From: Escherichia coli
GTDB taxonomy: Bacteria > Pseudomonadota > Gammaproteobacteria > Enterobacterales > Enterobacteriaceae
Assembly: GCF_003334785.1 (NCBI RefSeq)
Contig: NZ_QOWV01000001.1
DNA: 64,000 nucleotides
Direction: 5' to 3' (one strand)
The translations under genes and the position numbers were made by a program. The first letter of the stretch is position 1; the number at the start of each line of letters is the position of its first letter. Shown piece after piece: positions 43,784 to 46,830 of this stretch. The notes under the pieces were generated by a model. It was not told the DNA's origin, ran no database searches, and saw only the letters and a list, made by a program, of their open reading frames with translations.

Positions 43784-45496
43784 TTAAGGTGTGGGTTGTG
43801 CCTCTTTGGTTGAGGGTTGCGTCGTTGCTGACTTAACGGTCGGACGCGTCGCCGGAACATTGTCACACGGTTGCTCTTTCGGGCAGATCAAATCCAGCAT
43901 TTTCAGCGTCACGCCATTGGTCCAGCCAAAGCCATCCTGTAATGGATATTCGCCACCGCCGCCCCCCGTTCCGGTGGTGCTGACATCATATTTTTCCACC
44001 AGCTTTTTCTCCCGGTCATAGGTGTGCTGAACATTGGTCAGGAAGTGCCAGCTAATGTCCATCGCCACCTCTTTTTGCCCGTAGTTTTGTAATCCTTCTG
44101 TCGCGACCCACTGTAACGGTGCCCAGCCATTTGGCGCATCCCATTGTTGCCCACTTTTCACCGACGTGGTGTTCAGGCCGCCGGGTTGCAGCAGATGTGT
44201 TTTCGTCGCCGTCGCCATTTTGTTGGCGCGATCTTTCGCTGCCGCATTGACGTACAGCGGGAACAGGGCGGCCGCGGTTAACTGATTGCGCACTTTATGA
44301 CTTTTCAGGTCGTAATCGGCATACCAGCCTTGTTGATCGTTCCACAGGTATTTTTCGATCCCTTTTTGACGGGCATTTGCCAGCGTTTCGTACTGGTTTG
44401 CCATCGCGTTATCTCCGGCAGCTTTGCTGGCGCGGGCGAGGATTTTTTCCATTTTAAACATCAGGCTGTTCAGATCGACCGGTACGATGCTGGTGGTGCG
44501 TAAGGTATTTAACTGCTGCGGGTTGTCCATCCAGCGCGAGCTGAAATCCCAGCCAGACGCAGCGGCAGAGCGCAGGTCGCGGTAAATTTCAGTGGCAGGT
44601 CGATTCGGATTGCTTTTGGCGGTGGCAATATCTTCCACCCATGACTCTGGTCGTGGCGTATCGCGATCGTCCCAGTAGCGGTTGAGAAGGGTACCATCCT
44701 GAAGTTTGACAACGCGTTTTTCCTGTTGTCCGGCTTGCAGGTTTTCAACACCGTCCATCCAGTAAGCATATTCTTTTTGCATTTGCGGCAGGTATTGCTT
44801 CAACGCGGCATCGCCTTCATGCTGCGCCAGTAACTCTACCATCAGGGCAAAGAAGGGCGGTTGCGAGCGGCTTAAATAGTAACTGCGGTTGCCGTTGGGA
44901 ATATGACCGTAAGTGTCTATTTCATGAGCAAAATTGGCCACCATATTCGCGACTTTATCCCAGTGACCGCTTTCGGCAAGTCCTAACATGGTGAAGTAAC
45001 TGTCCCAGTAATATACCTCGCGAAAGCGTCCGCCCGGCACGACATAAGGTTCCGGCAGCGGTAACAGAGAATCCCATTTTTCGGTGTTTTCGGTAGAACG
45101 CGTTAATACCGGCCAAAGTCCGTCAATATGTTCGCGCAGTGACTGCCCCTCTGGCGGAACATATTTCTCGCCTTCTTTCGGCAGGGTGAAATTGACGTTA
45201 ACGAAATGGCGCAGATCAAATCCGCTCTGGTTTTGCTGCATCCGATAATCAGCAAGGATCATCAGCGGATCGCTGTTCGGCACGGCATCGGCAAAGGTTT
45301 TTTGGTCCGGAAAAAGTTTGGCGTTTTGCACATCATTAAACAGCGGCCCTAATAAAATATCAGGCGGCTGTGGTGTTACCGGTGTTTCTTCTGCCTGCAC
45401 CGATAGCGCAGCGAAACACAAAAAGATACAGGCTGGAATTAACGCCATTTTTTGCGGGCGAGAAGGTGCGGGGGATAATGATATGGTCACCCCCAC
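43784..45496 (-). CDS. treA: Periplasmic trehalase TreA, with the first two native codons and the promoter displaced by an IS insertion
   Basis: ORF reads (GTG)[39 protein letters not shown]... to ...KEAQPTP. The first seven codons lie inside the IS left end; the native ATG AAA is found on the far side of the IS at 46833-46838. Confidence 0.85.
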
Positions 45497-45546
45497 CTTA
45501 ACAGCAGTACGCTGTTAAGGTAAATCCCTTTAACGGAGAGACCATC

Positions 45547-46551
45547 ATGCAGAACATCACACTTATTGGTATCGATCTCGGAAAGCACTCCTTCCACATT
45601 CATTGTCAAGACAAGTCTGGTAAGGCTCTTCTGCGTAAAAAATTTACCCGTACTAAACTGATGCAGTTTCTGGCGACATGTCCGCCCTCAGTTGTTGTAA
45701 TGGAAGCCTGTGCGGGTGCACACTTTATGGCTCGCTGTATCTCTGATTTTGGGCATGAAACTAAGCTGATTTCTCCACAGTTCGTTCGCCCGTTTGTCAA
45801 AAGTAATAAGAATGATTTTGTTGATGCAGAAGCCATATGCGAAGCGGCTTCACGACCATCAATGCGTTTTGTCCAGCCAAGAACTGAGACCCAGCAGGCC
45901 ATGAGGGCGTTACACCGGGTCAGAGAATCGCTCATCAGAGATAAGGTGAAAACAACCAACCAGATCCACGGTTTCTTGCTGGAATTTGGAATCAGCCTGC
46001 CGATAGGTGATGCTGTAATAAAACGGTTGTCTCTCGTGTTGGCTGAACACGAAATCCCCGAATATCTGAGCCGCCTTTTGGTGAGGTTGCATACCCACTA
46101 CTTTTACCTTGTTGAGCAAATAGCAGAGCTGGAATCAGAATTAAGTCAGTCAATCAACGCTGATGATACCGCTCAGCGCATTATGACAATTCCTGGTGTT
46201 GGTCCGATTACTGCCAGCTTACTATCGTCGCAACTTGGTGACGGGAAACAGTTCTCATGCAGCAGGGATTTTGCAGCTTCCACAGGACTTGTTCCCCGGC
46301 AGTATAGCACTGGAGGAAAATCGACTCTGTTGGGTATCAGTAAGCGAGGTGATAAAAATTTACGCCGGTTACTGGTTCAGTGTGCCCGCTCATTCATAAT
46401 GCGACTTGAACGCAAGCATGGAAAACTTGCTGAGTGGGTTCGGGAGCAACTCAACAAGAAGCATTCGAATGTGGTTACCTGCGCTCTGGCAAATAAACTG
46501 GCTCGAATTGCCTGGGCAATCACTACTCAGAAAAAAGAATATCAGGCCTGA
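45547..46551 (+). CDS. IS110-family DEDD transposase/recombinase
   Basis: 334-aa ORF MQNITLIGIDLGKHSFHIHCQDKSG... with C-terminal ...FAASTGLVPRQYSTGGKSTLLGISKRGDKNLRRLLV...; resembles IS110/IS1111/Piv recombinases. Confidence 0.9.
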   Translation: MQNITLIGIDLGKHSFHIHCQDKSGKALLRKKFTRTKLMQFLATCPPSVVVMEACAGAHFMARCISDFGHETKLISPQFVRPFVKSNKNDFVDAEAICEAASRPSMRFVQPRTETQQAMRALHRVRESLIRDKVKTTNQIHGFLLEFGISLPIGDAVIKRLSLVLAEHEIPEYLSRLLVRLHTHYFYLVEQIAELESELSQSINADDTAQRIMTIPGVGPITASLLSSQLGDGKQFSCSRDFAASTGLVPRQYSTGGKSTLLGISKRGDKNLRRLLVQCARSFIMRLERKHGKLAEWVREQLNKKHSNVVTCALANKLARIAWAITTQKKEYQA

Positions 46552-46830
46552 TATAGATGCTGATATAACTCAATTAGTTTATTTTAAACAATAAGATACA
46601 AGTTACCTTTCTGGTTTTGCGAAGACTGATTATTGATGACATGAACGGCAAATCGACCTGATTAAAAACCTAACAGATGAAATGGCTCACTGAAGCCGAG
46701 GGGATTTTTAGGATTATCAGGTGCGGAACTCATCGGGGCGCGGGCATCCTTGCCCACAGAGACGCCGGATAGATTTAAGCAAGCCAACCATTAATCAAAA
46801 ATCAGTGTTGCAAAAACGGGGGTGACCATA
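46552..46830 (+). ncRNA. Non-coding right end of the IS; candidate bridge/guide RNA locus (prediction only)
   Basis: 279 bp without a credible ORF between the transposase stop and the right inverted repeat, with local hairpins such as GGGCATCCTTGCCC; IS110-family elements are reported to encode a structured RNA in their non-coding end. Confidence 0.3.

What the first reader, a model, noticed from the sequence alone, without database searches (positions are those of the whole stretch)
45477..46830. IS110-family (IS1111-like) insertion sequence sitting exactly on the treA start codon
A 334-aa ORF (45547-46551) has the N-terminal LIGIDLGK and C-terminal GLVPRQYSTGGK-type signatures of IS110-family DEDD recombinases. 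It is bracketed by subterminal inverted repeats TATGGTCACCCCC (45482-45494) and GGGGGTGACCATA (46818-46830). Joining the outer flanks (GCGGGGGAT / GATTTCATCAATCATTCTCCTTT) gives a continuous treA 5' end: an AGGAGA Shine-Dalgarno, then ATG AAA TCC CCC GCA. GAT is present on both sides, so a 3-bp target duplication is possible. The short left end (70 bp) and long right end (about 280 bp) fit the IS1111 subgroup. From memory, K-12 has no IS here.
Basis: partly seen in the sequence, partly recalled or inferred. Interest (0 to 1): 0.75.

Follow-up and report, generated by a model that had tools for sequence, protein, structure and literature searches.

The report
ISSfl8 insertion sequence splitting treA
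A known RNA-guided jumping gene of E. coli (ISSfl8, IS1111 family) has landed five bases into the periplasmic trehalase gene treA, because the start of that gene happens to spell the 12-base address the element normally finds in a different gene; this is an ordinary event for a known element.

Summary
Window 45477-46833 (1357 bp) is an intact copy of ISSfl8. It is 100% identical to more than 80 copies that RefSeq annotates as ISSfl8, and it has every IS1111-family hallmark I could test.

Only 2 of 5426 complete E. coli genomes carry it at treA. K-12 and about 5300 others have the empty site.

Two corrections:
- The flanking GAT is not a target duplication. The right-hand GAT is the conserved terminus of the element (CCATAGAT in all relatives), so nothing is duplicated.
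- The insertion lies 5 nt inside the treA coding sequence, not on the ATG.

New detail:
- ISSfl8's usual home is a fixed site in a DUF4942 gene (GGGGAT|TTCATC, 84 genomes).
- The treA start (GATGAAATCCCC on the treA strand) is a perfect 12-nt mimic of that site. An arnC site with one mismatch is a third home.
- In 19 related elements these segments change together with their targets, as published for seekRNA/bridge RNA.

The native treA ribosome-binding site and ATG now open a 15-codon dead-end ORF, so treA is probably inactivated or weakened.

Verdict: already known, low interest.

The parts
45477..46833 (+). Complete ISSfl8 copy (IS1111 family), 1357 bp.
   Evidence: 100% identical to ISSfl8 copies in more than 80 E. 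coli genomes. Boundaries come from the empty site and from the invariant termini AATGA.ATGG and GACCATAGAT in relatives.
45482..45494 (+). Left subterminal inverted repeat TATGGTCACCCCC, starting 5 nt inside the left end.
   Evidence: Perfect 13-nt inverted repeat with 46818-46830. Conserved in relatives.
45495..45521 (+). 11-bp stem-loop in the left end, between the inverted repeat and the tnp ribosome-binding site. Role unknown.
   Evidence: Perfect inverted repeat. 75% of cells paired and 6 pairs with double changes across 18 relatives, but the controls are mixed and RNAalifold did not recover it.
45547..46551 (+). tnp, a 334-aa DEDD transposase/recombinase. Putative catalytic residues are D10, E53, D90, D93; the GLVPRQYSTG motif is at 247-256.
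46647..46785 (+). Predicted seekRNA / bridge-type RNA, made of an outer helix and two stem-loops. The RNA ends are not determined.
   Evidence: Consensus structure over 18 relatives: 97.8% of cells paired, 7 pairs with compensatory changes, 0 of 500 shuffles reach the observed values, and slid controls collapse to 25-43%. No Rfam family matches.
46674..46683 (+). Guide 1, CAGAUGAAAU. It is complementary to the top strand of the target, AT|TTCATC(TG).
   Evidence: 8-nt exact complement to the treA site and 9-10 nt to the DUF4942 sites. It changes with the right flank in relatives.
46684..46697 (+). Apical hairpin GGCUCACUGAAGCC separating the two target guides.
   Evidence: Found in 55 of the 80 related loci from other genera. 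Pairs are invariant or kept in the 18-sequence alignment.
46698..46709 (+). Guide 2, GAGGGGAUUUUU. It is identical to the top strand GGGGAT|TT, so it would pair with the bottom strand.
   Evidence: 8-nt identity to the target. The 6-7 nt after the first G equal the last 6-7 nt of the left flank in nearly all of the 19 guide variants.
46727..46736 (+). Putative left-end (donor) guide AACUCAUCGG. CUCAU is complementary to ATGAG of the family's left end. Inferred and weak.
   Evidence: Invariant in the alignment. The ISSfl8 left end reads ATGAT, which gives one mismatch. No covariation test is possible.
46737..46766 (+). Second stem-loop (GGCGC/GCGCC plus an apical GGGC/GCCC helix).
   Evidence: The apical 4 pairs all show compensatory changes.
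46767..46778 (+). Putative right-end/flank guide GGAUAGAUUUAA. It equals the right terminus ATAGAT plus the first 2 nt of the right flank. Inferred.
   Evidence: ATAGATTT in elements whose right flank starts TT, and ATAGATTC in the IS5075-like elements whose flank starts TC. That is a single covarying event.
46808..46813 (+). TTGCAA, the -35 half of the promoter expected at the junction of the circularised element. After a 17-nt spacer comes GAT (46831-46833) joined to AAT (45477-45479), giving GATAAT.
   Evidence: Read directly from the sequence. Both halves are invariant in relatives. Junction promoters are documented for this family (PMC11187229). Not tested here.
46818..46830 (+). Right subterminal inverted repeat GGGGGTGACCATA, ending 3 nt inside the right end.
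45471..45476 (+). Left half of the target, GGGGAT. On the minus strand this is ATCCCC, nucleotides 6-11 of treA.
46834..46839 (+). Right half of the target, TTCATC. On the minus strand this is GATGAA and contains the treA ATG at 46838-46836.
46791..46851 (-). The orphaned treA translation start. The Shine-Dalgarno AGGAGA (46851-46846) and the ATG (46838) now open a 15-codon ORF, MKSMVTPVFATLIFD*, that runs into the IS right end.
43784..45476 (-). The treA body, cut off from its promoter, ribosome-binding site and first 5 nt. Remaining in-frame starts are GTG 45496 or 45490 (inside the IS left end) and ATG 45448 (Met12).
   Evidence: RefSeq annotates treA from Met12 in strain JKHS016.

Best explanation
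This is a recent insertion of the catalogued insertion sequence ISSfl8, an IS1111-family element with a DEDD recombinase and a guide RNA.

How it works. Steps 1-3 and the RNA processing in step 5 are taken from published work on relatives, not shown here.
1. The element excises as a circle.
2. Joining its ends creates a promoter, TTGCAA-17 nt-GATAAT.
3. That promoter transcribes tnp and the 282-nt downstream non-coding region.
4. The non-coding region folds into a two-stem-loop RNA, roughly 46647-46785.
5. The RNA is processed into a seekRNA.
6. In the internal loop of the first stem-loop, CAGAUGAAAU pairs with the top strand of the target and GGGGAUUU pairs with the bottom strand. This defines the address GGGGAT|TTCATC and the orientation of insertion.
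7. The recombinase exchanges strands at the T shared by the target and the element's terminus. Nothing is duplicated.

Why treA. The normal address is a fixed position in a DUF4942 gene of CP4-like genomic islands. The first bases of treA (G ATG AAA TCC CC on the treA strand) are a perfect 12-nt copy of that address, so treA is a secondary or near-cognate target.

Consequence. The treA promoter, ribosome-binding site and ATG are separated from the gene by 1357 bp and now feed a 15-codon ORF. Periplasmic trehalase is most likely lost or strongly reduced (inferred).
For: Identity:
- 100% identity over 1354 bp to annotated ISSfl8 copies.
- Pfam and NCBIfam assign the protein to the IS110 RNA-guided transposase family.
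- ISSfl8 is in the IS1111 matrix of PMC11187229.

Insertion:
- The empty site is present in K-12 and about 5300 genomes. The occupied site is found in 2 of 5426.
- Sibling genomes without the IS are about 100% identical over the other 23.6 kb, so the insertion is recent.

Target:
- Identical copies sit at GGGGAT|TTCATC in DUF4942, always in the same orientation.
- The right-end/DUF4942 junction is found in 84 genomes.
- treA shares all 12 nt.
- An arnC insertion has 11 of 12, plus 2 further matches to guide 1.

Guides:
- Both loop segments match the target.
- Across 19 guide variants and 39 sites, cognate guide-target matches sum to 16.1 nt on average, against 10.0 for non-cognate pairings. 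Only 1.9% of non-cognate pairings reach the cognate median.
- The top-strand match lies 5' of the bottom-strand match and the two overlap in the target, as reported for IS1111 seekRNAs.

Structure:
- 97.8% of cells paired, 7 compensatory pairs, 0 of 500 shuffles reach the observed values.

No duplication:
- The conserved CCATAGAT terminus against variable left flanks agrees with PMC11187229.
Against: - No RNA, circle or transposition data exist for ISSfl8 itself. The RNA ends, its processing and the junction promoter are inferred from relatives.
- The register of guide 1 relative to the crossover differs by one nucleotide between ISSfl8 and some relatives, for example L009 and L021 (and my reading of it).
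- In one relative (L007) guide 1 does not match its right flank.
- The proposed donor-end guides are invariant, so they cannot be tested by covariation. One of them mismatches ISSfl8's own left end.
- The consensus promoter scan found nothing in the integrated copy.
- The effect on treA expression was not measured. In-frame GTG and ATG starts remain.
Confidence: 0.9

Rival explanations
1. This is a conventional cut-and-paste or copy-paste insertion that duplicates 3 bp of target (GAT).
For: GAT is present on both sides, and the empty site has a single GAT.
Against: - Every relative ends in the invariant CCATAGAT, whatever its left flank ends in: GCT, TCT, GTT, ACT, GGT or TTT. The right GAT is therefore element sequence.
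- Only the final T is common to all left flanks.
- The family is reported not to duplicate its target. Earlier claims of duplication were attributed to mis-set ends (PMC11187229).
Confidence: 0.05
2. Target choice is made by the protein alone or by local DNA structure, and the RNA-target matches are coincidental.
For: - No RNA has been demonstrated for ISSfl8.
- T-rich targets inflate chance matches. The non-cognate mean is still 10 nt.
Against: - Guide segments change together with flanks in 19 variants, while the surrounding helices and the protein stay conserved.
- Experimental reprogramming has been shown for the family member ISEc11 (PMC11187229).
Confidence: 0.03
3. The treA::ISSfl8 allele was not created in this lineage. 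It was imported by homologous recombination from another strain, or it is an assembly artefact.
For: - Only two genomes carry it, and they are nearly identical to each other over 25 kb.
- One event plus inheritance or transfer cannot be distinguished from two independent events.
Against: - Two independently assembled complete genomes have identical junctions.
- The flanks are identical to IS-free siblings right up to the element ends.
- Import would only move the original insertion event to another strain. It would not change what the element is.
Confidence: 0.02

Closest known systems
ISSfl8 (ISfinder name; RefSeq 'IS110-like element ISSfl8 family transposase', WP_001179707.1)
   Same: The DNA is 100% identical over the whole element to more than 80 annotated E. 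coli copies. The protein accession is the same in strain JKHS016 at this very site.
   Different: Nothing in the element differs. Only the location does: treA here, against the usual DUF4942 gene. I could not compare it with the ISfinder reference entry itself.
[quoted passage not shown]
   Same: - Same termini (AATGAGATGG...GACCATAGAT) and the same type of subterminal inverted repeat.
- The same two-stem-loop RNA scaffold.
- About 77% DNA identity in the right end.
- 70% protein identity.
- No target duplication.
   Different: The guide loops differ. IS5075 has AAAACGGAAA and UAUAUUUUC, which match the Tn21 inverted repeat TATTT|TCCGTTTT. ISSfl8 has CAGAUGAAAU and GGGGAUUU.
ISEc11 and its seekRNA (Siddiquee et al. 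2024, PMC11187229)
   Same: - IS1111 family, with the non-coding region downstream of tnp.
- The RNA carries a top-strand match 5' of a bottom-strand match, and the two overlap in the target.
- Circle-junction promoter and orientation-specific insertion without duplication.
   Different: - It has a different target (GTGAAAATACTG).
- ISEc11's RNA and its requirement for transposition were shown experimentally. For ISSfl8 they are predicted only.
IS621 / ISCro4 bridge recombinases (IS110 group; Durrant et al. 2024; PDB 8WT6, 9T56)
   Same: - Same protein architecture, a DEDD RuvC-like domain plus a Transposase_20 domain.
- An RNA with internal loops that read both strands of the target.
- Strand exchange at a short shared core.
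   Different: - Only weak sequence similarity (E about 1e-14, mainly in the C-terminal domain).
- The bridge RNA lies in the left end, upstream of the gene.
- The order of top-strand and bottom-strand guides is reversed.
- There are no long subterminal inverted repeats.

Membership tests
IS110 superfamily (DEDD transposases) | Protein with an N-terminal DEDD/RuvC-like domain (PF01548) and a C-terminal Transposase_20 domain (PF02371) | tested here: met
   PF01548 at 1.1e-19 over residues 7-146; PF02371 at 1.6e-22 over residues 209-288. NF033542 scores 351 bits against a cut-off of 140. D10, E53, D90 and D93 align with the conserved acidic positions of ISCro4.
IS1111 family/subgroup | Subterminal inverted repeats of about 7-17 bp, set in from both ends | tested here: met
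   13-nt perfect inverted repeat at 45482-45494 and 46818-46830, set 5 nt and 3 nt inside the ends. Definition from PMC11208160 and PMC11187229.
IS1111 family/subgroup | The long non-coding region lies downstream of tnp (short left end, long right end) | tested here: met
   Left end 70 bp (45477-45546); right end 282 bp (46552-46833).
IS1111 family/subgroup | Transposase of 330-350 aa, related over its full length to IS1111-type transposases, with the C-terminal GL-P----S/T-G motif | tested here: met
   334 aa. GLVPRQYSTG at 247-256. ISSfl8 is listed with IS5075 (70%), IS1328 (72%) and ISPlu13 (78%) in the family matrix. 80 full-length relatives at 66-90% identity share the same termini.
IS1111 family/subgroup | Insertion at one specific sequence, in one orientation, without target duplication | tested here: met
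   DUF4942 site in 84 genomes plus metagenome copies, always in the same orientation. treA and arnC share the same core. No duplication once the conserved GAT terminus is counted as part of the element.
IS1111 family/subgroup | The non-coding region encodes a seekRNA with a top-strand match 5' of a bottom-strand match, overlapping in the target | tested here: met
   Met at the sequence and covariation level: guides at 46674-46683 and 46698-46709 overlap on ATTT, within a conserved structure. Whether the RNA exists, is processed or binds the protein cannot be tested with these tools.
IS1111 family/subgroup | A circular intermediate whose joined ends form an active promoter | not testable with these tools
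   The sequence predicts TTGCAA-17 nt-GAT|AAT, and both halves are invariant in relatives.
ISSfl8 (the named element) | Near-identity to the ISfinder reference sequence | tested here: inconclusive
   ISfinder is not available. Identity rests on RefSeq's naming of 100%-identical copies.

The most novel reading that the evidence does not exclude
ISSfl8's natural insertions form a small in-vivo record of off-target behaviour for an IS1111-type guide RNA.
- A bare 6+6-nt match (treA) is enough for insertion.
- A mismatch at position +4 of the right half is tolerated (arnC).
- An identical one-mismatch site in umuC, in this same window, is unoccupied.

Separately, the second stem-loop region carries conserved segments. 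AUAGAUU(U/C) equals the right terminus plus 2 nt of flank, and CUCAU is complementary to the left end. These could be the so far uncharacterised RNA readers of the donor ends and flank in IS1111 elements. That would explain why excision needs the cognate flanks and what the 'long seekRNA' is for.
Probability: 0.3. Interest if true: 0.4.

Novelty: already known. Interest (0 to 1): 0.22.

Why it matters
Practical points:
- treA is interrupted in this strain, but automatic annotation hides it. RefSeq simply restarts treA at Met12.
- A '3-bp duplication' should not be recorded for this element.

Scientific points:
- This is a clean natural example of an RNA-guided insertion sequence hitting a chance look-alike of its address inside a core gene.
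- Such cases give free data on how many matched bases the guide needs. That is relevant to people who engineer seekRNA or bridge recombinases.
- It does not reveal a new kind of system.

Tried and rejected
- Rfam scan of 45300-47000 at E up to 10. The only hit was a chance snoRNA match, and no family exists for this RNA.
- Sigma-70 consensus scan of the integrated copy. It found no sites. A hybrid promoter at the treA left junction (TTTGCG or TTGCGG plus GATAAT) has only 3 of 6 matches in the -35 hexamer, so I dropped it.
- ATTATC at 46713-46718 as a donor guide. Rejected because it lies in the 3' strand of helix P1 and does not change with the left end in relatives.
- Single-sequence folding. 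The z-scores of -0.7 and -0.5 are uninformative. Only the comparative analysis supports the structure.
- Metagenome scan with the 33-nt right terminus. The pattern was not specific to ISSfl8, since many hits are relatives with other guides. The 5 hits that also carry the ISSfl8 left end, and 2 more with the same right flank, were all in DUF4942.
- A fixed register between guide 1 and the crossover point. It does not hold across all relatives, because there is a 1-nt slip within T-runs. I therefore scored longest exact matches instead.
- The left-end hairpin. RNAalifold did not recover it, and direct counting gives only moderate support.
- The 8-nt match ATTGATGA (46632) to the treA-specific flank. 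About 0.4 such matches are expected by chance, and the segment is conserved in relatives with other targets, so I treat it as coincidence.
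Full report
**1. What is in the sequence**

The window is E. coli chromosome. treA lies on the minus strand (43784 to about 45476) and dhaM starts at 47158 on the minus strand. It is bracketed by a perfect 13-nt inverted repeat at 45482-45494 and 46818-46830.

I aligned the window with an IS-free genome. The left flank runs to 45476 (...GCGGGGGAT) and the right flank resumes at 46831 (GATTTCATC...). The empty site has a single GAT. 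K-12 MG1655 has the empty site, with 319 bp between treA and dhaM.

A 1954-bp query spanning the insertion is fully covered in only 2 of 5426 complete E. coli genomes, JKHS016 and AST198. About 5300 genomes show the two flanks abutting. Over 25 kb, several sibling genomes (SHP24, NCTC9087, EH09-18-41) are about 100% identical except for the missing 1357 bp. The insertion is therefore recent.

**2. What it is**

- The protein has the two Pfam domains of IS110-family DEDD transposases.
- It scores 351 bits on NCBIfam NF033542, 'IS110 family RNA-guided transposase'.
- The whole inserted DNA is 100% identical to more than 80 copies that RefSeq annotates as 'IS110-like element ISSfl8 family transposase'. 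The copy at this very site in JKHS016 is one of them.
- ISSfl8 appears among the IS1111-family elements in the identity matrix of Siddiquee et al. 2024, at 70% to IS5075, 72% to IS1328 and 78% to ISPlu13.
- The right-end DNA is 77% identical to IS5075.
- All the architectural criteria of the IS1111 subgroup are met. These are subterminal inverted repeats, a 70-bp left end against a 282-bp right end, a 334-aa protein and the GL-P----TG motif.
- The nearest solved structures are the IS110-group bridge recombinases ISCro4 and IS621, which are only distantly related (E about 1e-14).

**3. The ends, and the supposed duplication**

I collected 80 loci encoding relatives (66-90% protein identity) from other genera and several E. 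coli relatives. Those in which both ends could be located start AATGA(G)ATGG and end GACCATAGAT, or AACCATAGAT in three of them. Their left flanks end in GCT, TCT, GTT, ACT, GGT or TTT.

The right-hand GAT is therefore part of the element, and only a T is common to target and terminus. With the element defined as 45477-46833 (1357 bp), nothing is duplicated. This matches the statement in PMC11187229 that apparent duplications in this family come from mis-set ends. In ISSfl8 the target itself ends in GAT, which creates the look of a 3-bp duplication.

**4. Where ISSfl8 normally lives**

Four randomly chosen identical copies all interrupt a DUF4942 gene of CP4-like islands, next to cbtA-type toxin genes. 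They sit at the same position and in the same orientation...GTGGGGAT|IS|TTCATCT....

The right-end/DUF4942 junction is present in 84 genomes. In a metagenome scan, the 5 hits that also carry the ISSfl8 left end were all at this site, as were 2 further hits with the same right flank.

The treA site is GCGGGGGAT|TTCATCAA, so the 12 nt GGGGATTTCATC are identical. On the treA strand this is G-ATG-AAA-TCC-CC, the start of the gene.

A third site, in arnC of strain STO_Bone1B, is GGGGGAT|TTCTTCTG. It has one mismatch, and the element there is 100% identical. treA is thus a rare secondary target that mimics the primary one.

**5. How the address is read**

The 282-nt right end has no Rfam match. An alignment of 18 distinct relatives gives a clear consensus structure:
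- an outer helix (46647-46649 with 46783-46785);
- a first stem-loop, with P1 at 46653-46662/46716-46726, P2 at 46669-46671/46710-12, and an apical hairpin at 46684-46697;
- a second stem-loop at 46737-46766.

In this structure 97.8% of cells are paired, 7 pairs show compensatory changes, none of 500 shuffles reaches the observed values, and shifted controls fall to 25-43%.

The internal loop of the first stem-loop carries two segments. CAGAUGAAAU (46674-46683) is complementary to the top strand AT|TTCATC. GAGGGGAUUUUU (46698-46709) is identical to the top strand GGGGAT|TT, so it would pair with the bottom strand.

These are the only parts of the RNA that vary freely among relatives, and they vary with the flanks. 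Over 19 guide variants and 39 distinct sites, the summed longest matches average 16.1 nt for cognate pairs against 10.0 for non-cognate pairs. Only 1.9% of non-cognate pairs reach the cognate median. ISSfl8's guides score 16 on treA and at most 11 on any foreign site.

IS5075-like copies show the same logic with the Tn21 inverted repeat. The order of the matches (top-strand match 5', bottom-strand match 3', overlapping in the target) is exactly what was reported for IS1111 seekRNAs, and it is the reverse of the IS110 group.

**6. Steps that are inferred, not shown**

- By analogy with ISEc11, the element should excise as a circle. Joining the ends would create TTGCAA (46808-46813), a 17-nt spacer, and GAT|AAT. 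This promoter would drive tnp and the downstream RNA. Both halves are invariant in relatives.
- The integrated copy has no consensus promoter.
- Two further conserved segments flank the second stem-loop. AACUCAUCGG (46727-46736) contains the complement of the left-end ATGAG. GGAUAGAUUUAA (46767-46778) equals the right terminus plus 2 nt of flank.
- The second segment reads ...AUUC in the IS5075-like elements, whose flank starts TC. This is a single covarying event.
- These could be donor or flank readers. That would fit the published need for cognate flanks during excision, but the evidence is thin. ISSfl8's own left end (ATGAT) mismatches the first segment.

**7. Consequence for treA**

On the minus strand, the native Shine-Dalgarno (46851-46846) and ATG (46838-46836) now open MKSMVTPVFATLIFD*, which ends inside the IS right end.

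The rest of treA keeps three in-frame starts: GTG 45496 and GTG 45490 in the IS left end, and ATG 45448 (Met12). It has no evident ribosome-binding site for Met12 and no promoter of its own. RefSeq nevertheless calls treA from Met12 in JKHS016.

I infer loss or strong reduction of periplasmic trehalase. This was not tested.

**8. Verdict**

The finding is correct and well observed, but the element is a catalogued IS working in the way published for its family in 2024.

The added value here is:
- the corrected ends;
- ISSfl8's primary target and its predicted guides;
- the explanation of why treA was hit.

Novelty: already known. Interest: low.

Noticed in passing
window 30332-30343 (+), inside the umuC ORF 29291-30559: GGGGATTTCTTC is a one-mismatch copy of the ISSfl8 target. 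Its core is identical to the arnC site occupied in strain STO_Bone1B. It is unoccupied here, so it is a potential secondary landing site.
   Followed up: partly
window 45495-45521 (+): A perfect 11-bp stem-loop (ACCTTAACAGC-agtac-GCTGTTAAGGT) sits in the IS left end, between the inverted repeat and the tnp ribosome-binding site. Relatives keep an imperfect version with some compensatory changes (75% paired). Its role is unknown; translational control or end recognition are possibilities.
   Followed up: partly
L002 (JKHS016) locus 1608-3272 = window 43784-45448: RefSeq/PGAP annotates treA as an intact 554-aa gene starting at Met12. The disruption by the IS is therefore invisible in the annotation.
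   Followed up: yes
L007 (E. coli 2013C-3033), IS at locus 426-1784: In this 93%-identical relative, guide 2 (GGGGCU) matches its left flank, but guide 1 (AAAUAAAAU) does not match its right flank (TATTTTCGG). Either it inserted at a non-cognate site or the right flank was rearranged afterwards.
   Followed up: no
L093, L097, L100, L102-L106, L110-L112, L115-L117, L122-L125 (metagenome record SMLE01): One assembly has about 18 contigs that break at a right terminus identical over 33 nt to ISSfl8's. They have diverse T-rich right flanks (TTTT.., TTTA..). This is probably a high-copy relative with a much less specific, T-rich target.
   Followed up: no
row H20 (JKHS016): JKHS016 shows only one ISSfl8 place in its chromosome, so the treA copy appears to be its only copy. 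No DUF4942 donor copy remains.
   Followed up: no
window 46629-46642 vs 46832-46845: There is a 14-nt imperfect complementarity (86%) between a conserved segment upstream of the RNA (ATTATTGATGACAT) and the treA-specific right flank (ATTTCATCAATCAT). I judged it to be chance, but I have not excluded that it helped capture of this site.
   Followed up: partly
L003-L006: The primary ISSfl8 target lies inside a DUF4942 gene that is present, uninterrupted, in more than 1000 E. coli genomes, often in several island copies. Only 84 genomes have it occupied.
   Followed up: partly
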